Made by a program: the position numbers and the translations under genes. Under the pieces are notes generated by a model, which was given only the letters and a program-made list of their open reading frames with translations, was not told the DNA's origin and made no database searches. A stretch of DNA of 64,000 nt from an uncultured Methanosarcinales archaeon (GTDB taxonomy: Archaea; Nanobdellota; Nanobdellia; Woesearchaeales; GW2011-AR9), in the NCBI GenBank assembly GCA_964343575.1, contig CAYFJV010000002.1:69585-133584 (forward strand), read 5' to 3'. Shown in pieces: positions 39,380-60,908 of the stretch (position 1 is the stretch's first letter; each line of letters begins with the position of its first letter).

Positions 39380-41809
39380 GTGATGTTAGCGTCAGCTCAA
39401 AAAAGAGGACATTGTAGGGATAGCAAGCGTGGGCAAGTTACCCTGTTCATAATTCTAGGAATGGTTATTCTTATCTCCGTTGGTTTCATGCTAGCGCTTA
39501 CTGCCATGATTCAGAAAGGACAATTGCAAGTTGCTGAAGAAGATGTAGTTTCCAATTTATTTCAAACCGAGAGTTTGCGTTTGTTTATAGATGATTGTTT
39601 GTATGATGCCCTTGAGGAGGGTTTAGTTCAAATTGGAGAGCAAGGGCGTTTGTGGAAAGAGCAGGATGGTGGCACTGTTCCTTTTGTTGCAGGAGAGACC
39701 GGAACCTTTCATTTTGGAAAACAGGTTTATTATGCAATCAGTTATGATAACAACAGTAATCATAGCGAGGCTTACCCTTGTTCCAATTCCACAGATCTTT
39801 CTCCTGATTATTGTCGCTACAGTTTTCCTGAGGAAGGAAAATTTGGTGAGAAGGAGCATTTGAGTGCAAGTGCAATTGAAGGAGATTTGCTCCGATACAT
39901 TACTCAGGAAGCAGCTCTTTGTATGGAAGAAGTGCTTCAAAGTAATTATTCTTTGTTCGTCCCGGTTGTTGCTGAAGAAATTGATCTTTCTTTAGATATT
40001 GCTACAAATGGCATTGCTGTAGAAGCAAGCTATCCTTTACATCTTGAGCAAGGGGGAGAAGAATACACCCAACTTACCGAGTTTGATTTTTTTTACTCTA
40101 GCTCTTTGAGCTCTTTTTTACTTCAAGCAGTAACACGCCCTATTAATGAAGAGCAAAGTGATCCAACTTATCTTTTTTCAGAAGCTGATTTGCAAAGTTC
40201 GGAGCCCTATCAACTTTTAGATCCCACTTTTACAAAAACAGAGGCGAGCAGTGGGGATACTATCATTCAATATAACTTGAACCCGGGAGTGATTCTTGAG
40301 AACCAAGATTATTTCTTTCAATTTGCTTTAGAAAATCGCCCTCCTGCACTTGACTACATTGAGCGTAATGCTTGTTTAAGTTATGATTATTTGGTTTTAG
40401 AGGGAGAGCAAGGAGATATGGGAAAATTACTTTTAGATGCATCAGCTAGTGACCCTGAGGAGGATAGCGTTACTTTTTCTTTGCTTGACGATCATTTGCC
40501 AGTGCCACTTAGTTCGGTAGATTCTGATTCTTGGAGTGCAGACTTACAAGGTGCGGCTCCAGGTTATTATAACTTCACTCTTTTAGCGGCAGATGAACAT
40601 GGTAGGACTGATTTGCAAAATGTTCGCGTCCTTCTTGATCGAGAAATCACCGCTGAATTTTCGGTCGCTTCCCCTTATTGTACTTTTGCAGGAGACCATA
40701 GTTGTTTACTCTCTACCGAAGATCCTTTTTTTGTAACACTTACTAACCCAGGAGAATCGTTAGCAGCAGACGTTGATGAAGTGCTTGAGCTTAGTTACGA
40801 TGGTTTTAATGGAGAGAGCTTTGTTTCAGGAGCTTTGTATCCTTCCTTACTTGGTGCAGAGAGTTGTATTGGTCTTCCAATGGAAACTGAGACTAGCCCA
40901 GCATCTTGTAACATTAGTGCTTACGACCCATTCATTGAAAGTTGGAAAGATTCTTTGTTGGGCCCGAGCAGTACGCACCCCTACTTAAGCCAAACGACGC
41001 CAGATGGCGAACTTAGTGTGGCCTTTTTTACAGGTTATTGCGGCGCCTGGGAGTATGAAAATAAGGAGTTCTTACATTTTGAAGTTGCAGAGTGTATCCC
41101 TCATGAAAATCTTGAGAATCCCTTCGCTTACCCTTACCACCACCAAACTTTTGATCCGATCAGCGGAGAATATCTTGGTCTTGATGAGGAAATTAGTCCT
41201 TTCTTGGCGGCCCACAGTTGTTGTAATATGAATGGAACTTACAAGGCAGCAGGCTCAAGTTGTTATGAAAGTGCTCCTGGTTGTTATGGAGGTATTGTTG
41301 GTTGGACTTCTAGCGCTCCCGGTCTTGTCTTGGAGCAGGAAAGCGATACTTGTAGTGGGCTTCGTGGGAATGTTTGTGGGACTGGAAGTTCTAAAATAAG
41401 CGAATTGTATCAAGGAAACCTTGTTTGTGGAAGCAGTTTTGATGTTTCTTGCTCTTTAGATCAAATCCCAGATGTCTGTGAAGGAAGAGATGCTTGGGGT
41501 TATGTTGATGAGAACTTTGATGGTATTAACGATGCTTGGTGTCACGGGCAAATGGGTTGTAGTGCTCTTTGCTCACTCGGCGATGGCGGGTCAGTAGTTT
41601 ATTCAGGAGGAGGAGTTGCTCCAAGTGGGCCAGAGGGCATTAACCAACAGGCAGTTTTGGGACAGGCAAGTGATGATGCTTTTGCGCCTTTCGATCCTTT
41701 TTTCTCTTTTAGTTGTGGATGTAGTTCTGCTACAGAAGGAAGTGTTTGTGATGCTAACTTTGATGGAGAATTCTTAGGGCAGTGTGTTTCTAGTGTTTGT
41801 GTTGAGTAG
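39380..41809 (+). CDS. Large (809 aa) acidic, Cys-rich extracellular protein with a class III (prepilin-like) signal peptide
   Basis: The N-terminus is ...SKRG|QVTLFIILGMVILISVGFMLALTAM, a basic tract then G|Q then a 22-aa hydrophobic stretch. The mature part is D/E-rich with many paired Cys residues. Confidence 0.6.
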   Translation: MMLASAQKRGHCRDSKRGQVTLFIILGMVILISVGFMLALTAMIQKGQLQVAEEDVVSNLFQTESLRLFIDDCLYDALEEGLVQIGEQGRLWKEQDGGTVPFVAGETGTFHFGKQVYYAISYDNNSNHSEAYPCSNSTDLSPDYCRYSFPEEGKFGEKEHLSASAIEGDLLRYITQEAALCMEEVLQSNYSLFVPVVAEEIDLSLDIATNGIAVEASYPLHLEQGGEEYTQLTEFDFFYSSSLSSFLLQAVTRPINEEQSDPTYLFSEADLQSSEPYQLLDPTFTKTEASSGDTIIQYNLNPGVILENQDYFFQFALENRPPALDYIERNACLSYDYLVLEGEQGDMGKLLLDASASDPEEDSVTFSLLDDHLPVPLSSVDSDSWSADLQGAAPGYYNFTLLAADEHGRTDLQNVRVLLDREITAEFSVASPYCTFAGDHSCLLSTEDPFFVTLTNPGESLAADVDEVLELSYDGFNGESFVSGALYPSLLGAESCIGLPMETETSPASCNISAYDPFIESWKDSLLGPSSTHPYLSQTTPDGELSVAFFTGYCGAWEYENKEFLHFEVAECIPHENLENPFAYPYHHQTFDPISGEYLGLDEEISPFLAAHSCCNMNGTYKAAGSSCYESAPGCYGGIVGWTSSAPGLVLEQESDTCSGLRGNVCGTGSSKISELYQGNLVCGSSFDVSCSLDQIPDVCEGRDAWGYVDENFDGINDAWCHGQMGCSALCSLGDGGSVVYSGGGVAPSGPEGINQQAVLGQASDDAFAPFDPFFSFSCGCSSATEGSVCDANFDGEFLGQCVSSVCVE

Positions 41810-42034
41810 GTTTGGGTTTTGTTTTAGAGATGGTAGAAAAAGTCTTACCTTCTGCCGAAGCTTATTCCTGAAGGACTCTTGTCCGCCTTTGGATTTTCTC
41901 CTTTTGGTAGAAAATGGCTACCAAGAGCATCGCTCATTGGAAGTTTCTTGCCAGCAAAGGGGCAGAGAAGGAGACTTTTTCTACATCTTTTTTGGAGTAG
42001 AAAGTTTTAAGTTTTCTTAGGATTTGTTCTTCTT

Positions 42035-42604
42035 ATGGACCCGGTAAGTTTTTTGCTTCTTCTCGTAGTTCTTTTAGGAGTATTCTTTACTCTTCTCTAT
42101 CTTCTTTTTAAGCAGAAGGAAGAACACTTTGAGTATAGTTTGCCTTTGGAAGATGGGGAAGACGATGAGAAAAAAAGATCTTTTTTTGATCCTTCATTTT
42201 TTGCTAGAATTCAAGAACACCTCTTTTTTTTGCGTAAGAAGCACAAGAGAAAAGTGAGCTCTTACAAGCGTCATGAAGAGTTTGCAACCTTCCCTGAAAC
42301 TAAGGCTGCTTTTGTTGCTGGAAAAGACACTTCACAAAAGACAGGGAAAGGGATTGGAAAGGGTAGACACATGCACCGTCTTGGTAAGCTAGTTGATAAA
42401 CATCAACGAAAAAAAGTAAAAGCGTCTGCAGGAGGTAAGAAGAAGGAAAAAAAGTTTTTTCTGAACAGAGTTTTGGCTAAACGTATTGATTTTTGGAAAG
42501 AGAATACTCCTTTGCATTCTATCGAACGCATTGATGCTCTTGAAAGAGTTCGTTCTGTAGCAAAAGGTGCTGTGAAAAAGAAAGAAATTAAGAAAAAGAA
42601 GTAA
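42035..42604 (+). CDS. Membrane protein with an N-terminal TM helix and a long basic cytoplasmic region
   Basis: MDPVSFLLLLVVLLGVFFTLLYLLF followed by a K/R-rich region. Confidence 0.4.
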   Translation: MDPVSFLLLLVVLLGVFFTLLYLLFKQKEEHFEYSLPLEDGEDDEKKRSFFDPSFFARIQEHLFFLRKKHKRKVSSYKRHEEFATFPETKAAFVAGKDTSQKTGKGIGKGRHMHRLGKLVDKHQRKKVKASAGGKKKEKKFFLNRVLAKRIDFWKENTPLHSIERIDALERVRSVAKGAVKKKEIKKKK

Positions 42605-42714
42605 GGGTGTGTTTCTCTTCTCATTCTTTTCATTCTATTTTTTAAAGGTCTTCGTCGGTTCCTTTAAAACGAAGGTTTATAAAGCAAAATGCTTTCTTCC
42701 CTGAGGTATTTTCC

Positions 42715-45700
42715 ATGGTGGAAACGAGTAAAAAGAGGACCCTTGTAGATGTAATTCTAGCTCGAGCTTTTTTCTTTGGCCTTCTGTTTATTCTTACTGT
42801 GATTTCGCTTAACGGCGCCTTTGCTGTTGGCTTAGAAGGGTGTTACACTTATGCGGGAGGAAGCCCAGACCTTTTTTGTCAAGATGATGTCTTAGAAGAA
42901 GATGCTTTGGCTGACTATGAGCTCTTAGTTGGAGACGGGCTTTTTGATGATTATTTTTTCCCTGGGCAGAGTTGTGATGTTTTTCCTGACCTTTGTGAAG
43001 AAGTGACTTGCTCTTTGGATTGTAGCACGCAGGCGATTGGTTCTTGTGAATTTGAAGGAGGACAAGCAGTTCCAGATGATGAATATGATTTGTGGTGTAG
43101 TTGGGGTTGTTGTCAAATCCCTTCAGGTTATTGTGGTCAAGTAGATCTGCGCTCTGTTTGTGTGGAAGAAGCTTCTTACCAAGGATATTCTATCGATGAA
43201 GTAACTTACATCAGTTCAGCTTACAGTCCGATCACCACAGATGAATGTGTAGATCTTTGTGTTGCAGGATTGGAGGATGCGAGCTTAAGTGGTTACATCT
43301 TTGATGCAGCGGACGGAGTAACTCCAATTGAAGGAGCAACAGTTGAACTTCGATCGGGAGTTACAGCTCAAAGTGATGTGGCAGGATTTTATCAATTTCA
43401 AACAGTGAGCCCTGGAACTTATGTGGTAAGTGTTAGTGCAACTGGCTATTCTGGAGCTTCGCAGACAATAACTTTGGAATCTGGGGAAGTTGAAGAACTT
43501 GATTTCACTTTGAGCGTTGCAGACCAAGTAGCAAGTCTTTCTGGAACTGTGGTGGATGAGTTTGGTGTTGCAGTAGCTGACGTTTCTTTATGTTGGACTG
43601 GCCCAGGGGTTGGTTGTACTACTTCTGCAGTAGATGGTTCTTATTTGGTTAGCGAAATCTTACTTGGAGATTATACTTTTACTCTGAGTAAGTTTGGTTA
43701 TGAGACAAGTAGCGATAGTCTAAGCATTCAATCAGACCTGGTCTATGATTTTGTTCTCTTCTCTCAACCGTTCCAAGGTATTAGTGGAAGCACCTGGATT
43801 GATCCAGAAGGAGATGGTTTGCTTCTTGGCGGAACAGATTACTTGCAGTATGGGGTAAGTATCTTCGTAGATGGGATCTATCGGGGAAGTTCACAATACC
43901 CTGATGGAGATTTTAATATTTATCTTGATGAAGGAGATTATACCATAACAGCGAGCTACCTTGATTTTGTCTCTCCTGAGTACAGTGTTACTGTTCTTGC
44001 TGGACAGTCAAGTTCTGTTGATCCTGTGTTAACACAGTACATTGGAGAGTGTAGTTATGGTCAACCGGACGAGTCAAAACCAGTTGCAGAATTACATGCG
44101 GTCGCGGTTGCTGGTTCTCTTGCTGTAGATTTGAGTTGGGATAAACCTTGTGCTGAGGTGAGTGGTTATAATCTTTATCGTGACGGTGAGCTACACATGC
44201 AACTTTCACCTTTCGCTTTAAGTTTTACCGATTCAATTGATTTGGAATGGGGAATGGGTTATATCTATGGAATCCAAGCGATTTATACTGATGGTCCGAT
44301 GATTGATGACCAACCTCAAACTCGCTTTTCAGAGATTACTGAGACAAGCATCACTCTTGGAAATGCCGCTTGTGAAGGAAAAGAACCCGGAGATCTTTTT
44401 TGTCTGGCTGACGATCTAAAGTCAACTTACACTTGCGATATTTTCAACACTCTTTTGATCAGTACAAGTTGTGCTGCTTTAGATACAAGTACGAGCGATT
44501 ATTATTGTGTAGAATCAAGCCCAGGATTTGCAACCTGTAAAGACGCAGGTATGTGTAACGCCTTTACTCTTGGCGCCGATCCTTTTGGTTTGTACCACAG
44601 CGAAGAAGTTTGTTATGGCCCTTACCTTGGCGCAGAGAGCGGTTATGAGAATTATTGTTACTATGATTACACTTCTGGAGTTGTTGATCAGTGTACGAGT
44701 TGCGTGGAGGTAGAAAGTTGTTTTGATTATGTTAGTGAGGGGGCTTGTGGTATCAACAACTGTTTGGGAGTTGGTTGTCAATGGATCAACGGAAGTTCTT
44801 CTTCTGGAGAAGGAGATATTAGTGCTTATGAAGAAGAGAGCGAACCTTTCTTAGATTATGGTTACCTTTTCCCTGTGAGCGAGGAGACGGGCCATGGTTA
44901 TTGCGCCCCGCTTGAGTATGAAGAGGATGATAATTGCGCCCTTTGTTCTCCTGGAAGCAGTCTTTTTGAAAACAACTTGTGTACTCCTGAAGTTTGTACT
45001 GAATTGGGCGCTTGTTACTCTGATAAGGATTTGCCTTTGAGTACTTGCCATTCCTGTGGCGAAGAAAGTAGTCCCGAGGTGAACTGTTACAGTTATGCTT
45101 CAGAGCTGGAATGTACTGCAGGAAGCCCAACTGTGAACGATAATGGACAAATTTTGCGTTCAGCAGATAGCTGTACTTGGGGTGCTTGCGCTTGGATTGC
45201 CGATGACTTTGATCCTGCCGGTGGTTATTGTATCAAAGATGGGGATGCCAACCGTATTGATGATTGTTCTGAGTTTGTCTCAGGAGATTATTCTTCTTGT
45301 ATTGCAGATACTGCTCCGCCAGTGACTTCTTTGCAAGCAGAGGGCTTTGCAATTGTATCTGAGACATTTTCACAATTAGAATTTGTTGCTGTTGATAACG
45401 AGAGGATGGGGAGTCTGTGGTTCTGTTTGGAAAGCGCTGATGCAAGTGATTGTACTGATTTTGAAGCCGCAGATTATCCTTTCACCTTGCAGGGAGAAGA
45501 AGCTCTTTTGGAACTTAACATGAGTGAGTCAAGTTTTTTACAGTCAGAATTGGTTGATGGCGAGACTTACAAACTTCGCTTCTACTCCGTTGATGAGTTC
45601 TATAACCAAGAATCTGTACAAGAAGCTTTTGTTTTCGTTGATAACAAACTTCCCGATTTTACTGTTGTAACTGAGCCAAGCATAGATGGAGATGTTGTAG

Positions 45701-49140: not shown

Positions 49141-49183
49141 TCTATAGCTTTGTGGCTCAGATGGGAAGTTGGTTGATAGGAAG

Positions 49184-49717: not shown

Positions 49718-49782
49718 GGCATGGTTTGGTGAAGGGGTGTGAGCGAGTTTTTTGGTAGCTAAGATACTTGGAATATTGGAAA

Positions 49783-52539: not shown

Positions 52540-52749
52540 TTTGGTTTCACCTTAGTTATACACCCACAAGGACCACTTTTTCTTAACTTATTACTGCAAA
52601 GTGACGGAATTATATAAGAATTTCGTTATATTTTTCGAAAAAACAACAAATTGCTATGCTTTTTTCTCTTGTCTAAGAGGTCTTTTCTGGCAGTTTTTGA
52701 CGGGTTTTGGCCGGAATTTGTTTGAGAAAAGTTTAAGTGGGCTAAAAAA

Positions 52750-53858: not shown

Positions 53859-54075
53859 TTTTTTTGTTTCTTGTTTTATTTTTCTGTTTCATTGTGCTTG
53901 GCTTCGTTTAGTTTATTTTGTTCTTTTCTTGTTCATTTAGTTCTCTGTTAACGCAATCTTTATATATGCAAAATGGTTTTTGCTTTATTAATTTACAGTC
54001 GTAAAAACTCATTACAACTTGCTTGTAGCAATCTAGTTGCTTGCAAATGTTGTTGTGGGATCACAAAGAGGTGTA

Positions 54076-54458
54076 TGATGATGAACTTGTTTGCAAACAA
54101 AAAAGGACAAGGACTTTCTTTAACTGTTATAATTGTTGCAGCGCTTGCTTTGATTGTTTTAGTTGTTTTAGTTGCTATCTTTTTAGGAAGGATTGGTACT
54201 TTCGGAGAGGGAGTGAGTAAAGCGGGACAAGCAGATTTGTTGGAACTTAAGGTAAGTTATGGAACTTGTCATCCTGCAAAAGCGCAGGAAACAGTGTTTT
54301 TGAATGCTTATGCTGCTGCTGAAGGACTTGATGATTTAACAGCTCAGCAAGAAGAAAAAGATGCAGCCTATCAAGATCTAAGTAGTGAGATTAGCAGATG
54401 TAAGTCTGCTGCTAGTGATGAAGCAAATTGCCTATCCTTTGGCTGTGCTTGGGGATAA
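54076..54458 (+). CDS. Type IV pilin-like protein (class III signal peptide)
   Basis: MMMNLFANKKG|QGLSLTVIIVAALALIVLVVLVAIF. The track ORF begins at 53973 with an unlikely Cys-rich leader. Confidence 0.55.
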
Positions 54459-54470
54459 GAGGTTAGATAG

Positions 54471-54740
54471 ATGAGTGCCAGAAAGGGACAAGCGAACACC
54501 TTTTGGATTATCATTGGAGCAGTTATTGCTTTGGTGGTGATGGTTGTTTTGCTCTTGATGTTTACCACAAAGGGGAACATTTTAGAACAAGGGGTGAGCA
54601 GCTGCGAAGGTAAGGCCGGGAAATGTGAACTTGGTACGACTTGTCCCACTGGCACGCTGAAATCTCCTTTTGAGTGCGGCAGCCCCGATGAAGTTTGTTG
54701 TATCGGCGATATTGGCGGCGACGACGATGACGAAAGCTAA
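54471..54740 (+). CDS. Small type IV pilin-like protein (89 aa)
   Basis: MSARKG|QANTFWIIIGAVIALVVMVVLLLMF followed by a Cys-containing C-terminal knob. SD GAGGT lies 8 nt upstream. Confidence 0.55.
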   Translation: MSARKGQANTFWIIIGAVIALVVMVVLLLMFTTKGNILEQGVSSCEGKAGKCELGTTCPTGTLKSPFECGSPDEVCCIGDIGGDDDDES

Positions 54741-54855
54741 ACTAGTTGGTCGTCGTGGACAAGCCATGCCCTCGGTTGTTGTCATTGTTTTGGCAATCGT
54801 CTTTTTTGTGGTTGCCTTGCTTATTGTTGCTAAGATCCTCGGGTATTTAGAATAG
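54727..54855 (+). CDS. Mini-pilin (42 aa): class III signal peptide plus hydrophobic helix only; absent from the ORF track
   Basis: MTKAKLVGRRG|QAMPSVVVIVLAIVFFVVALLIVAKILGYLE. The start overlaps the stop of the preceding gene. Confidence 0.45.
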   Translation: MTKAKLVGRRGQAMPSVVVIVLAIVFFVVALLIVAKILGYLE

Positions 54856-54891
54856 AGCCGGCTTTGGTTTGTTAGTTGAGGTGTTGCCAAG

Positions 54892-55026
54892 ATGTGGAAC
54901 AAGAAAGGGATGGAATTTTGGCAATTGGTGTTGATTGTTCTTGCAGTGCTTATCATGCTTTTCTTTATTGTCTTTTACAACCAATTAGGAGATAAGTTGC
55001 GTGAAATTATAGGGGGCTTTTTTTAG
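54892..55026 (+). CDS. Mini-pilin (44 aa), not in the ORF track
   Basis: MWNKKG|MEFWQLVLIVLAVLIMLFFIVFYNQLGDKLREIIGGFF. SD-like GAGGTG lies 9 nt upstream. The stop is 1 nt before the next ATG. Confidence 0.45.
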   Translation: MWNKKGMEFWQLVLIVLAVLIMLFFIVFYNQLGDKLREIIGGFF

Positions 55027-55027
55027 G

Positions 55028-55813
55028 ATGGAGTTTACTTTTGCTAAACTTGGCTCTGGTATTTTGGCGGTGATTGCTCTTTTTTTTCTAGCAGCTTGGT
55101 TCTGGAGTAGTTCTGCTGAGGCAAAGGAATCAGTTTTTGAAGGGATTGATAACACACTCCCAGATATTGGTGCTGCCGAAGTTGATGGCGTTGATAAGAT
55201 TGTTCTGAGTGAAGAGCATCAAGCAGCAGTTGATGAACTTGTCTTTATGATGGAATTTATGGCGGTCAGCGAAGAGGCTTGTTTTTCTCAGTATAATGGC
55301 CTGGCAAGTTATGGAGAGAATGGTTTTCCTGCCCTTGGAACTGCAACGGGCGGAACTGCTTTGAGTTTTGTTTACAGTGCTGAGAAAGAGGAGACCGCAA
55401 TTACCATCTCTGGAGGTGCCCAAAGTCAGCTTATTCAGAGAATAGAAATTCCAGAAGTACGCCCTTGTATTATCGCAGGTAGTGAGGAAGTTTCTGGACT
55501 TTTACTTGCGCTTTGGCATAACATTGATGAAAAAAGAATCAGTGATGACCACCACATTCCTGTTGAGTCTCTTATTATCTCGGATGATGGGGGGGAGAAT
55601 ACAATAAATTATGGTTTTGGCCCCCAAGAATTTTTGGACTCTGGCTATCTTTATACCCCTGGGAATGGAAATGTTTGTTTCTTCCCAACAGTAGAAGATG
55701 AGGGAGATGTTTGTACTGCTACAAGAGAAGGGCTGGAAGAAAGTTGTTTTGATGAAGGCATGGAGAATGGTATCCCAGCATTGCTTGATGAAGGTTATTT
55801 GTTAGAATGCTAG
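55028..55813 (+). CDS. Secreted acidic Cys-containing protein (Sec-type signal, AEA|KE site)
   Basis: MEFTFAKLGSGILAVIALFFLAAWFWSSSAEA|KE. The post-signal AEAKE motif is shared with the next gene, which suggests paralogs. Confidence 0.5.
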   Translation: MEFTFAKLGSGILAVIALFFLAAWFWSSSAEAKESVFEGIDNTLPDIGAAEVDGVDKIVLSEEHQAAVDELVFMMEFMAVSEEACFSQYNGLASYGENGFPALGTATGGTALSFVYSAEKEETAITISGGAQSQLIQRIEIPEVRPCIIAGSEEVSGLLLALWHNIDEKRISDDHHIPVESLIISDDGGENTINYGFGPQEFLDSGYLYTPGNGNVCFFPTVEDEGDVCTATREGLEESCFDEGMENGIPALLDEGYLLEC

Positions 55814-55838
55814 TATTTTTTGAGTAGAGAAAAGGAAA

Positions 55839-56828
55839 ATGGTGAGAATGGAAAAAAAAGGCCAAATGCAGTTTGATCTGACCAGAATGATTGTTGTCGT
55901 CGTTGGTTTTCTTGTGATTGTTGGCCTTATCTTTTTTACAACTAGTAATGCTGAAGCAAAAGAGCCAGAACTTATCTGTGAAGAAAGTGTTGCCTTTCGT
56001 GCAGCGAGCGCCGTAGAATTTGCTGGGCAAGACATTAAGTACGCGCCAATTCTTTGTAAAACTGAGGATGAAGTTGTTTCTGGAAGTCAAGAAGAAGTCT
56101 TGGAAGAGTTTGCAGATTCCATGGCGAGTTGTTGGCAGATGTTCGGTGAAGGAAGATACAAAAATGATGTCTTTAGTAGCATGAGCATCTTCCAGCAAAA
56201 TAGTTGTTTTGTTTGTAATACTCTTTTAATTGAAGATATTAAGGCAGATGATGGTGATGAGCCTCTTGCTGGGGCTGCGTTTAGTTTTCCATTTGGGGTT
56301 GAAGAAGAAGGTGGTTCAATCTCTACGGACGAATTCCTTGAGTATATCATTGAAGAAGAACACCCTAAATTAGATGAAGTTAGCTATTTAGATTATTTTC
56401 AGAGTTATGCTGGAGATGGGAGGATTGTTCCTATCTTTAGTGGAGAAGAGGTTGACGGGGCTGTTGAAGTAGTTGGTATTGAAGAAGACCGAGCTTATGC
56501 TATTGCATTTGGTTCGCGAACAAGTTCTTGTGATTTTTGTGATACGCTCTTTGGTGGTGGAGTTGCCACCACTGCCTTAGGAGTTGCAGCTTTTGCTTAC
56601 TTGCCAGTTGGAGGAACACTTGCTTTGTACACTATTGGTGCAGGGGGGGTTGCTACTGTGGTTGGTGGAACCGGTGTGTTTAGTGATGTTTTTGGTGATG
56701 TTTTGTACGCTGATGATTTTGTTGAAAGTAGAGATGTAAGTACTGTTTATGTGGTTGATATTACCAACAGTGCTGCGCTGGAAGATTTTGGAAATAGTTG
56801 CGCCATTGTGCCGGAGTATATAAGATGA
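55839..56828 (+). CDS. Type IV pilin-like protein (class III signal peptide)
   Basis: MVRMEKKG|QMQFDLTRMIVVVVGFLVIVGLIFF, followed by TTSNAEAKEP. The mature part is acidic and Cys-rich. Confidence 0.55.
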   Translation: MVRMEKKGQMQFDLTRMIVVVVGFLVIVGLIFFTTSNAEAKEPELICEESVAFRAASAVEFAGQDIKYAPILCKTEDEVVSGSQEEVLEEFADSMASCWQMFGEGRYKNDVFSSMSIFQQNSCFVCNTLLIEDIKADDGDEPLAGAAFSFPFGVEEEGGSISTDEFLEYIIEEEHPKLDEVSYLDYFQSYAGDGRIVPIFSGEEVDGAVEVVGIEEDRAYAIAFGSRTSSCDFCDTLFGGGVATTALGVAAFAYLPVGGTLALYTIGAGGVATVVGGTGVFSDVFGDVLYADDFVESRDVSTVYVVDITNSAALEDFGNSCAIVPEYIR

Positions 56829-57223
56829 TTAATTTGGGTACTAGTGGGACTCTCTTTGGAAAGAAGGGACAAGGTTCACGAACCATTGTGGTCCTTATTG
56901 CTGCAGTATTGGTACTTGTTGTTGTTATTCTTCTTATTGCCATGTTCTCTCGAGGGGGAAGTACCGCTTTTGGAGGTATTAGTGATACCATTAGCTCTCT
57001 TGGTGATTGTGATGAAGATCTTGTTGCTAATTTGCAAGATAAATGTCCTTGTCTTGCTGGAGATCCTGCCAGTGAATTTGCAGGTTGTCCCTCCTCAGTT
57101 CGAGAAGAAGCAGATCTAGAAAATTATCAATGTAGTGAAGAAGAGCTTGCTGCTTGCGCTGCTGAAGAAGAAGAAGAGGATCCAAGAGGAGGAGATGGAG
57201 AAGAAGCGGGTGATGAAGTATGA
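56825..57223 (+). CDS. Type IV pilin-like protein (class III signal peptide)
   Basis: MINLGTSGTLFGKKG|QGSRTIVVLIAAVLVLVVVILLIAMF. The ATGA overlaps the upstream gene. The acidic C-terminus has Cys pairs. Confidence 0.5.
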   Translation: MINLGTSGTLFGKKGQGSRTIVVLIAAVLVLVVVILLIAMFSRGGSTAFGGISDTISSLGDCDEDLVANLQDKCPCLAGDPASEFAGCPSSVREEADLENYQCSEEELAACAAEEEEEDPRGGDGEEAGDEV

Positions 57224-58002
57224 GCTCTGTTTTTAGAAGTAGAAAGGGGTCTACGGTGATGCTTCCTTTTGTAGTTTCTATTCTTATTGGATTATTGTTA
57301 GTTGGATCCATTACTGGGATTGGCTATCGGCTTTTTGCAGAGAACGATCAAGCAGAAGAGAGTTTCGTAGAGTTTGCTGAGAAAATTAATGAAGCATCTC
57401 TCGCTGGCGAGGGAACTTCAAGCATTGTTCATTTAGATAGAGATAGTTTCATTATTGCTTACAATGCAGGCAAAGATACTTCTATCTGTACGGGGGGAGT
57501 AGATGGCTCGGTTTATGCTTGTGGGCCAAGTAATTATCCTTCTTCTGATGAAAATTGTGCGGGGGACGCTTGTATCTGTCTTTGTAGTGATTATTATACT
57601 CGCTCGGTGGTGGAAGGAGATAGTGATGATGAAGTGCTTGTTTGTGAGCAGCGTCAGTGTCTTGGAACTCCAGGTGTTATCTATACTGATAATTTGGCGC
57701 TTGAAAACTTTTATCTTGATGAAAGCGTTGTGGTTCCCAATATTGCTACTGGTCATTTCGATCAAGGATTTATTATTACTCGAGATGTTTTGAATCCAAG
57801 TTTTTTTGCATTTCCTTTCATGGATTTTGGCAGACAATTTTTTACTATTACTTACGTAGAGGGGGTTGAAGGCGGAGCAGAAATTGCTGTGTGTAGAAAC
57901 GATCCTTGTGTCATTTTTGGAGAAGAAACAGTTTTTGAAGAGGAGCAAGAGGAAAGAATTTTGGAGGGGGAGCAGGAGGAAGAAGCTGCACTGCTTTCTT
58001 AG
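57220..58002 (+). CDS. Type IV pilin-like protein (class III signal peptide), Cys-rich
   Basis: MSSVFRSRKG|STVMLPFVVSILIGLLLVGSITGIGY. The ATGA overlaps the upstream gene. Confidence 0.55.
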   Translation: MSSVFRSRKGSTVMLPFVVSILIGLLLVGSITGIGYRLFAENDQAEESFVEFAEKINEASLAGEGTSSIVHLDRDSFIIAYNAGKDTSICTGGVDGSVYACGPSNYPSSDENCAGDACICLCSDYYTRSVVEGDSDDEVLVCEQRQCLGTPGVIYTDNLALENFYLDESVVVPNIATGHFDQGFIITRDVLNPSFFAFPFMDFGRQFFTITYVEGVEGGAEIAVCRNDPCVIFGEETVFEEEQEERILEGEQEEEAALLS

Positions 58003-58005
58003 AAC

Positions 58006-58485
58006 ATGTATTCGCTTTTCTCCAACAAAAAAGCAAGCACTATTATGATTTTTATCATTCAGCTAGTTTTAGTTGTCTTGATTGTTGGAAGCATTTCTGT
58101 GTATATGAAAGATTCCGCTACTGGTGAGCGCGTGAATAAAATTTTACTTGCTGATGAGCTTGCAGGAGCAGTGCAGTTGTTGGTTGCGCAGCCAGGAGAT
58201 GCTGTGTTAGAATTCCCTTTGCAAGAAGGCCAAGACCTTTCTTTGTATGTGATTACTTTGTCTGGAGGAGAGGTATCTGTCTTTTTGGAAGATGAAGGTT
58301 CTTTGACTGCAATTACTCGTGATCTTTTATTGCCAAAAGAGTATGATGCTGTTGGTGCATCTAACCAGTTAGCATATTTTTGTTTGAGGAAAGAGGGAAG
58401 GAGTGTTTTCTTAGAGTCTTGTGTTTCTGAGGAAGTCCTTGAAGAAGAAAGTGAGATGGAAGAAGAGGTCTTTGCAAATGTTTAG
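58006..58485 (+). CDS. Type IV pilin-like protein (class III-like signal, Ala at position -1)
   Basis: MYSLFSNKKA|STIMIFIIQLVLVVLIVGSISVYM. Confidence 0.45.
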   Translation: MYSLFSNKKASTIMIFIIQLVLVVLIVGSISVYMKDSATGERVNKILLADELAGAVQLLVAQPGDAVLEFPLQEGQDLSLYVITLSGGEVSVFLEDEGSLTAITRDLLLPKEYDAVGASNQLAYFCLRKEGRSVFLESCVSEEVLEEESEMEEEVFANV

Positions 58486-59008
58486 CATTATGTTTAGAGG
58501 CATGCTTGAGAATAGAAAAGGAGAGTCTTCTGCTCCCATCGCTTGGACTTTTATCTTTTTTATGGCGCTTATCCCATTAATAATTGTACTTGCTTTTGTT
58601 ACTTTGTTTACTATTGGTACTTTTCAAGGGAATGTTACTGAGCAGCCCCTGGCTTTACAGGCAGATTCTTTGGCAGAACGCTTCTTTTCTAGTTCAGAGT
58701 GTTTTGCTTACGAAGATCCTTTTACTGGGGAGTTTGTAAAAAATAGCATTGATTTGGAAAAGTTTACTGCAGAGCAGTTTGAGCGGTGTTATTTTACAGG
58801 AGAAGGTGGTTTTGAAGATGTTAATTTTGCCATTGTTTTGCCGGCCTATGAGGGTGTTGGTTTAACAAGTGATAATTATTACAATGTTTATGGAACTATT
58901 TTTGAGCAGTTAGTATTGGTGTATGAGGAGAGAGAAGAAGGGCAGGAAGGAGAGAGAAGGAGACCTGTTTTGAGTCAGATTGAAATTCATGTGCAAGGAG
59001 AAGTATGA
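58478..59008 (+). CDS. Type IV pilin-like protein (class III-like signal)
   Basis: MFSIMFRGMLENRKG|ESSAPIAWTFIFFMALIPLIIVLAFVTLF. The start is reassigned from the track's 58421 and overlaps the upstream gene by 8 nt. Confidence 0.45.
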   Translation: MFSIMFRGMLENRKGESSAPIAWTFIFFMALIPLIIVLAFVTLFTIGTFQGNVTEQPLALQADSLAERFFSSSECFAYEDPFTGEFVKNSIDLEKFTAEQFERCYFTGEGGFEDVNFAIVLPAYEGVGLTSDNYYNVYGTIFEQLVLVYEEREEGQEGERRRPVLSQIEIHVQGEV

Positions 59009-59523
59009 TGTTGTTATTAAAAAACAAAAAGGGAGCATTTGCGGGGGCAGCAGACATAATTCTTTTTGCTGGCCTTGTACTTATTTTGCTTGTACTTGTT
59101 GGTATCTTTAACACAGCTGCTGCTGCTGAAAATGTTGGGGCAACAACTTCTGTCTTACAGCTCGATGCCAACGAAGATGTACTTACTTTGCTTCGCAGTA
59201 CAGTGAACTATGATGATCAGGAGATTAGCTTTGGGCACTTGGTGGAGTTGTCTCAAAACCAAGGCCAAGAAGAACTTGAGCGAGGTATTCTGAAGGAGAG
59301 TCATGAGCTTTTAGATCCTGTTGTTGGTGAGAATAATTGGGCAATAAACATTTGTTATGAAGATAAAGGAAGCCATGATAGCAAGTGTTGGTTGTATTTG
59401 AACTCTAATCGTTGGAGTGCTACGGTTAAAGGACCAAAAGGCAATTTAGAAAGTGAAGGAAGTATTACTTTTATTGATCAGAAAAGCGAGCGTGTGACAG
59501 TTACTTTGCGCTTGCTGAAATAG
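59005..59523 (+). CDS. Type IV pilin-like protein (class III signal peptide)
   Basis: MMLLLKNKKG|AFAGAADIILFAGLVLILLVLVGIF. The ATGA overlaps the upstream gene. Confidence 0.55.
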   Translation: MMLLLKNKKGAFAGAADIILFAGLVLILLVLVGIFNTAAAAENVGATTSVLQLDANEDVLTLLRSTVNYDDQEISFGHLVELSQNQGQEELERGILKESHELLDPVVGENNWAINICYEDKGSHDSKCWLYLNSNRWSATVKGPKGNLESEGSITFIDQKSERVTVTLRLLK

Positions 59524-59543
59524 ACGAGAAGTTATTAATTTAG

Positions 59544-60908
59544 GTGTTAAGGATGTTGTTTGAAAACAAGAGAGGAGAAATTATGCATTGGGCAGTCATT
59601 GGTGTGATTTTAGCTCTTGGCATGTTTTTTGTTTATTCTTACGGAACAACCCTTGATTTTGGCGGTAAGGATTTTACTGCTCTTGAGGTTGGTAATGTTT
59701 TTGAGCAAGCAGAGATTGATAAGTATTATCTTGAGAGGAGCATGCAACATTTGGCTTGGGAGACTGTTCTGGATTTAGCTGCGGTTGGTGGTATGCCTGA
59801 TCAATACTGTGGAGAATATTTGGGTTATACTTTGTGGAACAATAAAGTTGAGAGTTGTTATGTAGAAGAGGGAGATGGTTTTGTTGAGTTATTTGCAAGC
59901 AATTTTGCTTTAGAATCTAACTCTTTGTTTTATGAAAATGAAGTGGTACTCGGGGGCGACTATTCTTCAGAAGATGAGCTTGGGGATGTTGTTTTGCGTG
60001 AAGTTGAGACTACTTTTCCCGAGGATTTTGCTTATGAGTTTAGTTATGAAGGAGGGCGTTTTTCTGGAAAAAGTTCTGAAGAAGTGTTTATTAGTGATGA
60101 TCGAGAAAAAATAAGTTACTCTTTTTCACCTTCCTTTAGTGTTGACCTTGGTTACGGTTTAAGCTCTGAGTATGCTGTTTTGAAAGAAGAATCTGCATTG
60201 CTTCTTGCTTCTTGTAGCTCAAGTTTACTCTTGCGTGAATGTTTAGAGAGAGAAATGAAAGATCGTTGGCACTTTATGCACTGTGATTTGCCAGCTTATC
60301 AAGAAGAGCGTCGTCAAGTTGCCTTTTGTGTAGAGAGTCCTGGCGAAGAGAAGGTGTTTAAAGGCGTTAGTGAGTTAGTTCCTGTGCAGTATAAGTTTGC
60401 CTTAGATTTTAGTTCTCCTGGCGCTTTTCCAGTGCAAGATCTTATCGTGGGGTATGATGCAGCTTTTGATCTTTATGAGATTAGCTTTGTTGGCGGGGAT
60501 GTGGGGCTTGCTGCTGATTGGTATCATATTTACCTGACAACTTATGATGATAGTATGTACGTTGGCCCTATTGAAGATTTTTTGGGCTATCAATTTTCAG
60601 GAATTTATTTTGAAGAGTTTGCTTTCTCTTCTGAGGATGTTAGCTTGGAATGTCCTTTGACAAATCCAGTTGCGGTTGCTGGCGGAGCTTTTGCTTGTGG
60701 TGATAGGGTGTATTATTACCTTGCTCCAGAAGATTTGCCGAGTTTGCCTTTATTTGAGGAGTATTTTGTAGGGGTTGGTGCTTGGGAAGGTGGTGAAGAG
60801 TCGGTAGTCAATGGTTTTGTCGCTTTGCCTGAACATCCTCTTAGTTTAGATATTGGCTCGGGTCCTGGTCTAGAAGAATCCTTGGAAGAAGAGATGGCAA
60901 CTATCTAG
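59544..60908 (+). CDS. Type IV pilin-like protein (class III signal peptide), 454 aa, acidic
   Basis: MLRMLFENKRG|EIMHWAVIGVILALGMFFVYSYG. SD-like AGGTG lies upstream. Confidence 0.55.
   Translation: MLRMLFENKRGEIMHWAVIGVILALGMFFVYSYGTTLDFGGKDFTALEVGNVFEQAEIDKYYLERSMQHLAWETVLDLAAVGGMPDQYCGEYLGYTLWNNKVESCYVEEGDGFVELFASNFALESNSLFYENEVVLGGDYSSEDELGDVVLREVETTFPEDFAYEFSYEGGRFSGKSSEEVFISDDREKISYSFSPSFSVDLGYGLSSEYAVLKEESALLLASCSSSLLLRECLEREMKDRWHFMHCDLPAYQEERRQVAFCVESPGEEKVFKGVSELVPVQYKFALDFSSPGAFPVQDLIVGYDAAFDLYEISFVGGDVGLAADWYHIYLTTYDDSMYVGPIEDFLGYQFSGIYFEEFAFSSEDVSLECPLTNPVAVAGGAFACGDRVYYYLAPEDLPSLPLFEEYFVGVGAWEGGEESVVNGFVALPEHPLSLDIGSGPGLEESLEEEMATI

What the first reader, a model, noticed from the sequence alone, without database searches (positions are those of the whole stretch)
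39380..60908. About 21.5 kb operon-like locus with at least 14 paralogous class III signal peptide (type IV pilin-like) genes, Gln at +1, and no assembly machinery in sight
About nineteen of twenty consecutive genes are co-directional with short gaps. Several stop/start pairs overlap as ATGA (53310, 56825, 57220, 59005), and internal genes are preceded by GAGGTG-type Shine-Dalgarno motifs. This points to polycistronic, translationally coupled expression. At least 14 products begin with a short basic tract, then Gly (once Ala), then Gln/Ser/Met/Glu, then a 20-25 aa hydrophobic helix. Examples are SKRG|QVTLF, NKKG|MGIQQ, GKKG|QFTLT, KRG|QIQMM, RKG|QAEII, NKKG|QGLSL, RKG|QANTF, RRG|QAMPS, EKKG|QMQFD, GKKG|QGSRT, SRKG|STVML, NKKA|STIMI, NKKG|AFAGA and NKRG|EIMHW. 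This is the archaeal prepilin-peptidase (PibD/EppA/FlaK) substrate signature. The frequent Q at +1 is the feature reported for EppA-processed pili rather than archaellins. Mature domains range from nothing (42-44 aa mini-pilins) to more than 700 aa. They are strongly acidic and Cys-rich, and they diverge quickly between paralogs. No FlaI/PilB ATPase, FlaJ/PilC platform or prepilin peptidase is encoded in the window. Either the machinery is elsewhere, or this is a large substrate/adhesin repertoire for a pilus or other surface structure. In a small-genome DPANN-like archaeon that would be a candidate host-attachment apparatus.
Basis: partly seen in the sequence, partly recalled or inferred. Interest (0 to 1): 0.85.

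Follow-up and report, generated by a model that had tools for sequence, protein, structure and literature searches.

The report
Conserved pilin-like surface operon of Woesearchaeota
This 21.5 kb stretch is a strictly conserved operon of uncultivated DPANN archaea (Woesearchaeota) that encodes one giant cysteine-rich surface protein plus about 16 different pilin-like proteins; it is probably a cell-surface fibre or attachment apparatus, and I found no description of it in the papers I searched.

Summary
At 39380-60908, 19 of 20 genes are co-directional. Sixteen products start with a short basic leader, then Gly/Ala, then a ~20 aa hydrophobic helix. The window holds no pilus ATPase, platform or prepilin peptidase.

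Two parts of the interpretation needed correcting.
- **Not paralogs.** BLASTP and profile-profile comparison find no similarity between mature domains. Only g09, g10 and g15 share an N-terminal region.
- **Not a variable repertoire.** The same gene order (giant protein, then g04-g20) recurs in 80 fetched loci, from 143 species genomes with a g05 relative. These are Woesearchaeota/Nanoarchaeota MAGs at 35-55% identity.

Evidence for a pilin-like system:
- In 14 families, 834 of 868 orthologs keep [K/R]-[G/A/S] just before the helix.
- Cysteine counts are even in at least 95% of orthologs, which fits extracellular disulfides.
- AlphaFold2 models of g04 and g05 (pLDDT 94 and 91) have 55- and 47-residue N-terminal helices on beta-rich heads.
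- An exact TTTATATA box precedes g09 in 56 of 63 loci, marking it as the likely major subunit.

Best reading: a type-IV-filament-like apparatus whose assembly machinery lies elsewhere (flaI/J/K are reported in Woesearchaeota). Cleavage and filament formation are untested. No Pfam or PDB match supports membership.

The parts
39380..41809 (+). g01: 809 aa modular pilin-like protein (leader ...SKRG|QVTLF). The large mature domain is acidic with 29 Cys.
   Evidence: Orthologs in 42 loci, upstream of the giant gene. Eleven of the 14 orthologs whose N-terminal helix lies inside the fetched locus carry the motif, 8 of them with Q at +1. No Pfam hit in 9 orthologs.
42035..42604 (+). g02: 189 aa protein with an N-terminal TM helix and a very basic cytoplasmic tail. 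It has no pilin-like leader and is poorly conserved.
   Evidence: Found in only 3 loci. Other loci carry analogous small TM-plus-basic proteins.
42715..49140 (+). g03: giant 2141 aa surface protein. It has an N-terminal signal, an ectodomain of about 1900 aa with 78 Cys (CarboxypepD_reg x3, Big_3_3), a C-terminal TM helix and a cytoplasmic Gly-rich/basic tail.
   Evidence: Pfam. Present in about 79 loci directly upstream of g04. 59 of 60 full-length orthologs have the C-terminal TM and a tail of about 160 aa, with 74-90 Cys in the ectodomain. Ortholog N-termini read KKRG + h-region + AxA-like site + GCYxYP.
49169..49717 (+). g04: pilin-like protein, likely start ATG 49184 (MFWNKKG|MGIQQ). Part of module A.
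   Evidence: 82 loci. 79 of 81 orthologs keep the motif. AF2 pLDDT 93.7: helix 6-60 followed by a beta-rich head. The family has 1645 representatives at 50% clustering. Distant members start MKKA|Q or MKRG|Q.
49768..50934 (+). g05: 383-388 aa modular pilin-like protein (GKKG|QFTLT), likely start 49783. Part of module A.
   Evidence: 233+ homologs, all annotated as hypothetical. AF2 pLDDT 90.9: helix 27-73, beta domain, C-terminal helical bundle. No significant PDB match.
50944..52539 (-). g06: 531 aa acidic protein with a lipobox-like N-terminus (VALAGAC). It is a window-specific insertion and not part of the conserved operon.
   Evidence: No ortholog in any of the 80 loci. In relatives the median g05-to-g07 gap is 37 nt, against 1834 nt here.
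52750..53313 (+). g07: pilin-like protein (RKRG|QIQMMETIAV). An acidic residue at about +6 is conserved. Part of module A.
   Evidence: 80 loci.
53310..53858 (+). g08: pilin-like protein (SRKG|QAEII). Its start overlaps the g07 stop (ATGA). Last gene of module A.
   Evidence: 76 loci. In distant lineages the unit giant-g04-g05-g07(-g08) occurs without module B.
53959..53966 (+). TTTATATA: putative archaeal TATA box of an internal promoter for g09.
   Evidence: The exact octamer occurs upstream of g09 in 56 of 63 loci, against 0-1 for each of 13 other genes. Position in the window. The g08-to-g09 spacer is the one conserved long gap not filled by a further gene (median 158 nt).
54068..54073 (+). 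GAGGTG Shine-Dalgarno-like motif, 1 nt upstream of the first of three consecutive ATG codons (54075, 54078, 54081) that open g09.
   Evidence: An SD-like motif precedes g09 in 58 of 63 loci.
54075..54458 (+). g09: small pilin-like protein (MMMNLFANKKG|QGLSLTVIIVAALALIV). The mature part is about 110 aa with 4 conserved Cys. Predicted major subunit and first gene of module B.
   Evidence: Most conserved family tested (53% mean column identity). It has its own TATA box and SD. 66 of 67 orthologs keep the motif, with Q at +1 in 58. No Pfam or PDB sequence match.
54471..54740 (+). g10: 89 aa pilin-like protein (SARKG|QANTF) with 6 Cys. Its N-terminal region is related to those of g09 and g15.
54727..54855 (+). 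g11: mini pilin-like protein of about 42 aa (MTKAKLVGRRG|QAMPS). The full ORF starts at 54670.
   Evidence: Too short for homology detection, but relatives usually have 2 mini-ORFs at this position.
54892..55026 (+). g12: 44 aa mini pilin-like protein (MWNKKG|MEFWQ).
   Evidence: 52 loci. 51 of 53 orthologs keep the motif.
55028..55813 (+). g13: 261 aa acidic secreted or anchored protein with a plain N-terminal hydrophobic segment and no K-K-G motif. It serves as an internal control.
   Evidence: Only 13 of 61 orthologs show any [KRH][GAS] before the helix.
55839..56828 (+). g14: 329 aa modular pilin-like protein (EKKG|QMQFD).
   Evidence: No Pfam hit in 18 orthologs.
56825..57223 (+). g15: 132 aa pilin-like protein (FGKKG|QGSRT). 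The full ORF starts at 56798; the ATG at 56825 overlaps the g14 stop.
57220..58002 (+). g16: 260 aa pilin-like protein (SRKG|STVML). Its start overlaps the g15 stop (ATGA).
58006..58485 (+). g17: 159 aa pilin-like protein (NKKA|STIMI).
58478..59008 (+). g18: 176 aa pilin-like protein (NRKG|ESSAP). The full ORF starts at 58421.
   Evidence: This is the weakest family: 42 of 50 orthologs keep the motif.
59005..59523 (+). g19: 172 aa pilin-like protein (NKKG|AFAGA). Its start overlaps the g18 stop.
59544..60908 (+). g20: 454 aa modular pilin-like protein (ENKRG|EIMHW). Last gene of the operon; the RPA gene follows.
   Evidence: RPA is the conserved downstream neighbour in 32 loci.

Best explanation
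The locus is a lineage-conserved, two-module operon for a type-IV-filament-like cell-surface apparatus of Woesearchaeota (DPANN).

- **Module A** (g01, g03, g04, g05, g07, g08) encodes a giant Cys-rich surface protein that is anchored by a C-terminal helix. It also encodes pilin-like proteins that always accompany it.
- **Module B** (g09-g20) starts at its own TATA-box promoter. Its first gene is g09, a small and highly conserved subunit that I predict to be the major structural subunit. About ten further pilin-like proteins follow, some carrying large extra domains, plus one non-pilin secreted protein (g13).

Proposed mechanism:
1. Each precursor inserts into the membrane.
2. A FlaK/PibD/EppA-type prepilin peptidase removes the 4-12 residue basic leader after the K/R-K/R-G/A/S site.
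3. An ATPase/platform pair (FlaI/FlaJ, also annotated CpaF/TadC) encoded elsewhere in the genome assembles the processed subunits, through their hydrophobic N-terminal helices, into a fibre or short pseudopilus.
4. The large modular subunits and the giant protein supply adhesion, most likely to a host cell or a surface.

Shown here: the motif and its conservation, collinear orthology, signs of extracellular disulfides, the helix-plus-head architecture of two members, the internal promoter element, and the absence of machinery in the window.

Inferred: cleavage, polymerisation, which subunit is the major one, the partner machinery and the biological role.
For: **Motif.** Sixteen window genes carry the leader/Gly/hydrophobic-helix signature. 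In 14 families, 834 of 868 orthologs keep [K/R]-[G/A/S] immediately before the helix. The co-encoded g13 does so in only 13 of 61. Distant g04 relatives begin MKKA|Q, MKRG|Q or MRNKKS|Q, as do nearly all genes of a distant locus, L095. These sites have the same form as the KG|Q and RA|Q sites of EppA-processed Epd pilins (PMC4371748).

**Helix conservation.** The N-terminal helices are strongly conserved within each family. Several families hold an acidic residue at +2 to +6 (g07, g08, g12, g19), which is unusual for a simple anchor.

**Architecture.** AF2 of g04 (pLDDT 93.7) gives a 55-residue N-terminal helix and a beta-rich head. AF2 of g05 (pLDDT 90.9) gives a 47-residue helix and a beta domain.

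**Extracellular location.** Cys counts are even in at least 95% of orthologs of every family.

**Fixed apparatus.** The order 01-03-04-05-07-08-09-10-12-...-20 holds in 80 loci from a scan that found 143 species genomes. Forty-six complete loci have 13-16 motif ORFs. Intergenic gaps are about 0-40 nt.

**Major-subunit signal.** TTTATATA lies upstream of g09 in 56 of 63 loci and an SD-like motif in 58 of 63, against 0-1 TATA hits for the other genes.

**Module structure.** Distant lineages keep giant-g04-g05-g07(-g08) alone.

**Machinery in the lineage.** flaI/flaJ/flaK are reported in Woesearchaeota genomes (PMC5994134). CpaF/TadC(/FlaF/PilA) loci are reported across cluster-2 DPANN, including Woesearchaeota (PMC11291902).
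Against: - No pilin-like product matches any Pfam or NCBIfam model, including the archaeal pilin/class III models. Only sub-threshold helix-driven hits appear (Flp1_like E=0.015, Pilin_N E=0.019).
- Profiles of g09 and g04 find nothing among PDB sequences.
- No ATPase, platform or peptidase lies in the 64 kb window or in about 18 kb of extra flank. No secretion-ATPase Walker A motif turned up in any of the 80 related loci.
- One paper states that type IV pilus components are missing from DPANN genomes (bioRxiv 10.1101/2020.05.14.094862).
- The giant protein keeps a C-terminal TM helix and a cytoplasmic tail. That is hard to reconcile with riding on the tip of an extended pilus.
- For g04, g07 and g20, public gene calls start downstream of the motif. 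The leader therefore rests on conservation, not on mapped starts.
Confidence: 0.6

Rival explanations
1. Uncleaved signal anchors. The N-termini are ordinary type II membrane anchors. The operon builds a membrane-tethered extracellular complex around the giant protein (an envelope scaffold or S-layer-like canopy), with no prepilin processing and no filament.
For: - No peptidase, ATPase or platform is linked to the operon in any of 80 loci.
- No structural or sequence match to any known pilin.
- The giant protein is itself membrane-anchored with a cytoplasmic tail.
- T4P components are said to be missing in DPANN.
- S-layer-like proteins are known neighbours of archaeal pilus genes (PMC4858521).
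Against: - A positive-inside anchor needs basic residues but not an invariant small residue at the helix boundary. Yet G/A/S follows K/R in 96% of 868 orthologs across 14 unrelated families, while the co-encoded anchored protein g13 lacks it.
- Leaders are extremely short (MKKA, MKRG) in distant relatives.
- Conserved acidic residues sit inside the helices.
- Mini-proteins that are little more than the helix (g11, g12) make little sense as anchors with nothing to anchor.
Confidence: 0.2
2. Bindosome-like assembly. The proteins are true class III signal peptide substrates. After cleavage they form a surface-anchored multi-protein platform with enzymatic or binding functions, rather than a polymeric pilus. 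This would resemble the sugar-binding proteins that the Sulfolobus Bas system assembles.
For: - The mature domains are diverse, unrelated and often large.
- In a distant relative, a leader-bearing protein at the end of the operon carries a peptidoglycan amidase domain (Amidase_3, E=4.3e-18). Functional cargo can therefore be attached.
- The precedent is described in PMC3047682 (listed).
Against: - No substrate-binding or enzyme domain is detectable in any window product or in 60 orthologs of the four large families.
- The small, highly conserved g09 with its own strong promoter looks like a polymerising major subunit.
- The composition is fixed and collinear, which suggests one machine rather than a set of independent cargo proteins.
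Confidence: 0.15
3. Variable adhesin repertoire, or decayed fragments of one ancestral gene. The genes are fast-evolving duplicates used for antigenic or host-range variation, or they are pseudogene pieces.
For: Only superficial features fit: many adjacent genes share the same N-terminal signature and have very different C-terminal parts.
Against: - One-to-one collinear orthologs at 25-62% identity across three distant genomes, and then across 80 loci.
- No similarity between mature domains, even with profiles.
- Conserved even Cys counts.
- High-confidence folds for two members.
Confidence: 0.02

Closest known systems
Epd pili of Methanococcus maripaludis (EppA-processed type IV-like pilins)
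   Same: - Leader and cleavage-site form are alike: K-G|Q-hydrophobic. Epd sites are KGQV, KGQL, KGQI and RAQI (PMC4371748); window sites include KRG|QV, KKG|QF, KRG|QI, RKG|QA and KKG|QG.
- Several different minor pilins are needed besides one small major pilin.
- A single genome carries many predicted substrates (14 predicted EppA substrates in M. maripaludis).
   Different: - No sequence match to the Pfam/TIGRFAM class III or archaeal pilin models.
- Gln at +1 is conserved in only about 5 families, and there is no regular Glu at +5.
- Here 15-16 families sit in one collinear operon together with a 2141 aa protein.
- No epdJ/K/L-like platform or ATPase genes lie in the locus.
Bacterial type IVa pilus minor pilins plus PilY1 priming/tip complex (for example Myxococcus xanthus, PMC7541494), and the T2SS GspH-I-J-K tip
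   Same: - A gene cluster of about four different minor pilin-like proteins lies next to a very large adhesin-type protein. Here that is giant-g04-g05-g07-g08, the unit that stays together even in distant lineages.
- A separately promoted small major subunit is present.
   Different: - The resemblance is analogy only, with no detectable homology.
- PilY1 is not membrane-anchored, whereas the giant protein has a C-terminal TM helix and a cytoplasmic tail.
- The host is archaeal.
- About ten further pilin-like genes follow.
Modular type IV pilins (for example Streptococcus sanguinis PilB, PMC8179133)
   Same: A pilin-type N-terminus is fused to large extra modules. g01 (809 aa), g20 (454 aa), g05 (388 aa) and g14 (329 aa) fit this pattern. 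So does the Amidase_3-bearing protein in L095.
   Different: The modules in the window have no recognisable domain family. Nothing is known about whether they are incorporated into a fibre.
Conserved type IV pilus loci of cluster-2 DPANN (CpaF, TadC, FlaF, PilA, coiled-coil proteins; PMC11291902)
   Same: They occur in the same lineages, Woesearchaeota included. They are the most likely source of the ATPase and platform that would assemble the products of this operon.
   Different: They are different loci. This operon has no CpaF/TadC. Its neighbours are RNase P p30 and Lgt upstream and RPA downstream.
Sulfolobus bindosome (Bas system; PMC3047682)
   Same: Class III signal peptides sit on proteins that are not classical pilins.
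   Different: No substrate-binding domains and no bas genes are present. This operon also has a small, major-subunit-like gene.

Membership tests
Type IV pilin-like proteins / class III signal peptide substrates (type IV filament superfamily) | A short positively charged leader, a small residue (G/A/S) at -1, then a hydrophobic stretch of about 20 residues at the mature N-terminus. | tested here: met
   Sixteen window genes. 834 of 868 orthologs in 14 families. Distant relatives as well.
Type IV pilin-like proteins / class III signal peptide substrates (type IV filament superfamily) | The leader is removed by an A24-family prepilin peptidase (PibD/FlaK/EppA). | not testable with these tools
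   No peptidase in the window or its flanks. flaK is reported in Woesearchaeota genomes (PMC5994134). The rest of this genome could not be read.
Type IV pilin-like proteins / class III signal peptide substrates (type IV filament superfamily) | Pilin architecture: an extended N-terminal alpha-helix of about 50 residues whose C-terminal half packs on a globular, beta-rich head. | tested here: inconclusive
Type IV pilin-like proteins / class III signal peptide substrates (type IV filament superfamily) | A cognate assembly ATPase (FlaI/PilB/CpaF) and a polytopic platform (FlaJ/PilC/TadC) in the same genome. | not testable with these tools
   Absent from the 64 kb window and from about 18 kb of extra flank. 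A Walker A search of the 80 related loci found no secretion ATPase. Reported for the lineage in PMC5994134 and PMC11291902. A contrary statement appears.
Type IV pilin-like proteins / class III signal peptide substrates (type IV filament superfamily) | A significant match to curated pilin/class III models (Pfam Class_IIIsignal/DUF361, Pilin_N, Flp1_like; NCBIfam archaeal flagellin N-terminal domain). | tested here: not met
   No hit for any window product. Among 57 g09 orthologs only sub-threshold hits appear: Flp1_like in 6 members (best E=0.015) and Pilin_N in 1 member (E=0.019).
EppA-type (Epd) pilins | Conserved Gln at +1 (required by EppA) and Glu at +5. | tested here: inconclusive
   Gln at +1 is conserved in g01, g05, g07, g08 and g09, and in distant g04 members, but not in the other families. 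Acidic residues occur at +2 to +6 in only some families. The rule is taken from PMC4371748. The presence of an EppA homolog is unknown.
Archaellum | Archaellin domain proteins plus FlaF/G/H/I/J in the locus. | tested here: not met
   No archaellin or Fla-family Pfam hit in any product.
Bindosome (Bas) substrates | A class III leader on solute-binding proteins, with basEF nearby. | tested here: not met
   No solute-binding domain and no ATPase or platform in the locus.

The most novel reading that the evidence does not exclude
The operon encodes a previously unrecognised class of type-IV-filament-related machine specific to Woesearchaeota and their relatives. It would be a heteropolymeric stalk or pseudopilus built from about 15 different pilin-like subunits, coupled through the membrane to a 2000-residue disulfide-rich adhesin that has a cytoplasmic tail. 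This would be the core host-contact (and possibly host-wall-attacking) organelle of one of the most widespread uncultivated archaeal lineages. It might be assembled by machinery that is not the canonical FlaI/FlaJ pair.
Probability: 0.25. Interest if true: 0.85.

Novelty: new variant of a known kind. Interest (0 to 1): 0.68.

Why it matters
Woesearchaeota are among the most abundant uncultivated archaea in groundwater, sediments and lakes. They are thought to depend on hosts, but no attachment structure has been tied to genes.

This operon is conserved in gene order across at least 80 fetched loci, from 143 species genomes that hold a relative of g05. One of its families has 1645 representatives at 50% clustering. 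Every product is annotated as hypothetical, and public gene calls even cut off some of the leaders.

If the reading is right, the operon gives a concrete parts list for that question:
- a candidate major subunit, g09;
- a candidate tip or priming module, g04/g05/g07/g08 with the giant protein;
- modular subunits that may carry binding or lytic functions.

It also offers about 15 new pilin-like families for models of type IV filament diversity. And it bears on conflicting statements in the literature about whether DPANN archaea have type IV pili.

Tried and rejected
- **Family scans.** Pfam and NCBIfam scans of all 20 products, then of 57 g09 orthologs and 60 orthologs of g01/g14/g16/g20, gave nothing significant.
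- **PDB sequence search.** Profile searches with g09 and g04 found only TM-helix noise.
- **Paralogy.** BLASTP and hhalign between families rejected paralogy of the mature domains.
- **Hunt for machinery.**
  - I scanned 30 further ORFs of the window with Pfam and translated two ORFs that had no family.
  - I extended the window by look-ups on both sides.
  - I searched all ORFs of the related loci for a secretion-ATPase Walker A motif. The only hit is an ORF of unknown family, with the motif near its N-terminus, in L074.
  - I clustered the unassigned neighbours; they are RPA, YdjM and housekeeping genes.
  - No machinery was found. I could not read the rest of any genome.
- **Giant protein as a pilin.** Most orthologs have KKRG before the hydrophobic stretch. 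However, that stretch is followed at once by an AxA-like site and the conserved GCYxYP start of the mature domain, so a Sec signal is more likely. The window copy lacks the Gly.
- **ORF at 15153-15491 (- strand).** I considered it as a further pilin. It more likely starts at MAEL, downstream of the motif, and has a basic C-terminal tail.
- **Literature.** Eight searches found no description of this operon.

Full report
**1. What is in the window**

The window comes from an archaeon. Outside the locus it encodes both subunits of DNA polymerase D, Cdc6/Orc1, MCM, TBP, TFIIE-alpha, aIF2-beta, Hjc and an RNase P p30-like protein. G+C content is about 40% throughout.

Between 39380 and 60908 lie twenty ORFs. 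Nineteen are on the + strand. I numbered them g01 to g20. A GAGGT-like motif precedes 7 of 19 called starts.

Sixteen products have the reported N-terminal signature: one to three basic residues, then Gly (once Ala), then a hydrophobic stretch of about 20 residues. These are g01, g04, g05, g07-g12 and g14-g20. A simple rule finds these 16 genes in the 21.5 kb locus. The rule asks for [KR][KR][GAS] followed within 8 residues by 17 residues of mean hydropathy 2.2 or more. It gives only four hits in the remaining 42.5 kb, none of them a convincing further member.

The remaining four products differ:
- g03 is a 2141 aa protein with three CarboxypepD_reg domains, 78 Cys, an N-terminal signal, a C-terminal TM helix and a Gly-rich/basic cytoplasmic tail.
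- g02 is a small protein with one TM helix and a very basic tail.
- g13 is an acidic protein with a plain N-terminal hydrophobic segment.
- g06, on the opposite strand, has a lipobox-like N-terminus.

**2. Not paralogs, but a fixed set of distinct families**

All-against-all BLASTP finds no similarity between mature domains. I built profiles of the mature domains of 14 families, each from up to 60 orthologs. No pair scored above 3% probability in hhalign. Only g09, g10 and g15 are related, and only in their N-terminal regions.

None of the pilin-like products matches Pfam or NCBIfam. Sixty orthologs of the four large families gave no match either.

**3. The locus is a strictly conserved operon**

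The last gene, g20, has relatives at 26-29% identity on two unrelated contigs. Both contigs show the same layout: a giant CarboxypepD_reg protein, about 15 small genes of matching sizes, then the RPA gene. BLASTP gives one-to-one collinear orthologs for nearly every gene.

g05 has more than 233 homologs. All are annotated as hypothetical, and the few that carry an organism name are nearly all Woesearchaeota/Nanoarchaeota. A scan of one genome per GTDB species found 143 genomes with a relative, and I fetched 80 loci. The record titles name Woesearchaeota, Nanoarchaeota or Nanoarchaeia. Many are labelled only 'archaeon', or, oddly for this family, 'uncultured Methanosarcinales'.

jackhmmer with the 20 window proteins recovers the order 01-03-04-05-07-08-09-10-12-13-14-15-16-17-18-19-20 in essentially every locus, as far as the fetched DNA reaches.
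- g06 and g11 have no detected orthologs.
- g06 is an insertion: the g05-to-g07 gap is 37 nt in relatives and 1834 nt here.
- g11 is too short to detect, but relatives usually have two mini-ORFs at that place.
- Forty-six complete loci carry 13-16 motif-bearing ORFs between g04 and g20.

The g04 family alone has 1645 representatives at 50% clustering with E of 0.001 or better. More distant members sit in the same kind of operon (L095). Others sit in a shorter unit: giant-g04-g05-g07 in L096-L098, and g04-g05-g07-g08 behind a cut upstream gene in L099, each followed by unrelated genes.

**4. Evidence that the N-termini are processing signals**

In the 14 families, 834 of 868 orthologs with a detectable helix have [K/R/H] followed by G, A or S just before it. 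Position -3 is usually also K or R. Most exceptions still have a small residue at -1 (KQG|Q, KNA|M, KLG|Q). The co-encoded g13 family shows the motif in only 13 of 61 orthologs, so it is not a general property of N-terminal helices in these genomes.

Distant g04 relatives begin MKKA|Q, MKRG|Q, MRKRA|Q or MRNKKS|Q. Nearly every gene of L095 has such a leader. These sites have the same form as those tabulated for the EppA-processed Epd pilins of M. maripaludis: KGQV, KGQL, KGQI and RAQI. Gln at +1 is required by EppA (PMC4371748). In this operon Gln at +1 is conserved in five families and variable in the rest.

Within each family the helix sequence is strongly conserved. Several families hold an acidic residue at +2 to +6.

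The mature parts carry an even number of Cys in at least 95% of orthologs of every family. The giant ectodomain has 74-90 Cys. This points to disulfide-bonded extracellular domains.

**5. Structure**

I modelled two members with AlphaFold2, using alignments of database homologs.
- g04: pLDDT 93.7. Residues 6-60 form one helix, followed by a beta-rich head.
- g05: pLDDT 90.9. Residues 27-73 form one helix, followed by a beta domain and a C-terminal helical bundle.

In secondary-structure order this is the general lollipop layout of type IV pilins; I did not check the three-dimensional packing of the helix against the head. The head domains, however, match no solved pilin, pseudopilin or archaellin.

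The architecture therefore agrees with a pilin-like protein, but fold membership is not demonstrated.

**6. Internal organisation**

Intergenic gaps are about 0-40 nt. Two are longer:
- g08 to g09, median 158 nt;
- g10 to g12, which holds the second mini gene.

The g08-g09 spacer contains an exact TTTATATA in 56 of 63 loci. A GAGGT/AGGTG motif lies close to the g09 start in 58 of 63. The same octamer occurs 0-1 times upstream of each of the other 13 genes tested. In the window the box is at 53959-53966, the SD-like motif at 54068-54073 and the first ATG at 54075.

g09 is small (about 110 aa mature) and is the most conserved family examined (53% mean column identity). Taken together with the short operons of distant lineages, this suggests two modules:
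- Module A: the giant protein with g04, g05, g07 and g08 (and g01).
- Module B: led by g09, which I predict to be the major structural subunit.

This division is an inference.

**7. Machinery**

Nothing resembling FlaI/PilB, FlaJ/PilC/TadC or an A24 peptidase is present in any of these places:
- the window;
- about 10 kb to its left (A-type ATPase genes);
- about 8 kb to its right (RadA, PPDK);
- the 80 related loci.

I could not read the rest of any genome.

The literature is divided. One study reports flaI, flaJ and flaK in Woesearchaeota genomes (PMC5994134). Another reports two conserved CpaF/TadC loci across cluster-2 DPANN, including Woesearchaeota (PMC11291902). A groundwater study states that type IV pilus components are missing in DPANN.

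Unlinked pilin genes are normal in archaea (PMC4371748; PMC4858521). The absence from the window is therefore not informative by itself.

**8. Interpretation**

The best-supported reading is a type-IV-filament-like surface apparatus of fixed composition. The steps would be leader cleavage at K-K-G/A/S, assembly through the N-terminal helices by machinery encoded elsewhere, g09 as the bulk subunit, and the large modular subunits and giant protein providing binding. I give this reading a confidence of 0.6.

The closest functional analogies are these:
- The Epd pili, for signal type and for having many minor pilins.
- The bacterial minor-pilin/PilY1 tip complex, for four small pilin-like genes beside a huge adhesin (PMC7541494). 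This paper appeared only in a search listing and I did not read it.
- Modular pilins (PMC8179133, likewise seen only in the listing).

The giant protein's C-terminal anchor and cytoplasmic tail argue for a short, cell-proximal structure rather than a long pilus tip.

The rivals are an uncleaved membrane-anchored complex (0.2) and a bindosome-like, processed but non-filamentous platform (0.15). The repertoire or pseudogene reading is excluded by the data.

Host attachment is plausible for a DPANN lineage but is not shown. One hint comes from L095. There, a leader-bearing protein at the end of the operon carries an N-acetylmuramoyl-L-alanine amidase domain (E=4.3e-18).

**9. Novelty**

Eight literature searches found no description of this operon. 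A 2026 preprint that classifies archaeal type IV filament systems around ATPase/platform loci (10.64898/2026.04.22.720090) would not capture it, since it has neither gene.

I classify the locus as a new variant of a known kind: archaeal pilin-like gene clusters. It is unusual in four ways:
- its size (15-16 families);
- its strict collinearity across a whole lineage;
- the giant partner protein;
- the complete lack of matches to existing family models.

Noticed in passing
window 37790-38653 (-), 37161-37772 (+), 50944-52539 (-), 63399-63623 (+): A bacterial-type prolipoprotein diacylglyceryl transferase (Lgt; PF01790, E=1.7e-63) is encoded in this archaeal genome. It sits next to a protein with a clear lipobox (LAFLLAC|S). 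Two further lipobox-like N-termini occur in the window: VALAGAC in g06, and LGLLAC in a 74 aa His/Asp/Glu-rich protein. This suggests a bacterial-style lipoprotein pathway in a DPANN archaeon.
   Followed up: partly
L095:9516-10538 (+): In a distant relative, a protein at the end of the operon has a class-III-like leader (…KKA|Q…) and an N-acetylmuramoyl-L-alanine amidase domain (Amidase_3, E=4.3e-18, 66 bits). It could be a pilin-like carrier of a peptidoglycan hydrolase, which would hint at interaction with bacterial cell walls. This rests on a single locus.
   Followed up: partly
window 50944-52539 (-): g06 (531 aa, acidic, 10 Cys) is inserted on the opposite strand between g05 and g07. It has no ortholog in any of the 80 related loci.
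   Followed up: partly
related loci, e.g. L019:1560-2753, L026:1593-2825, L029:2033-3085: About half of the related loci carry an extra secreted Cys-rich protein of 310-460 aa just upstream of the giant gene. jackhmmer groups it with the giant family (g03), and like the giant it opens its mature part with a Cys-aromatic motif ('GCFLY...' against 'GCYxYP'). The window lacks it and has g02 (one TM helix plus a basic tail) instead.
   Followed up: no
window 49205, 52804, 59583 (starts called in ENA record ERZ930065 k127_12616): Public gene calls start g04, g07 and g20 at a Met downstream of the K-K-G site. Automatic annotation therefore hides the leader peptide of these proteins.
   Followed up: yes
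L043, L044, L045, L046: spacer between g08 and g09: In these loci the spacer holds an additional segment with hairpin potential (…aggattaggtcct…) between a GAGGTG-like motif and the g09 start. It might be a regulatory RNA element or a small insertion.
   Followed up: no
window 15153-15491 (-): A small ORF between the TFIIE-alpha and aIF2-beta genes encodes one TM helix and an extremely basic C-terminal tail (…KKKSPAKKKKSPARKKTTSRRTTRRRR). It matched the motif rule, but it probably starts at MAEL, downstream of the KRG.
   Followed up: partly
record titles of L012, L013, L017 and others: Many genomes that carry this operon, which is otherwise seen only in records named Woesearchaeota/Nanoarchaeota, are titled 'uncultured Methanosarcinales archaeon' in their public records. 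These look like placeholder or wrong taxonomic labels.
   Followed up: no
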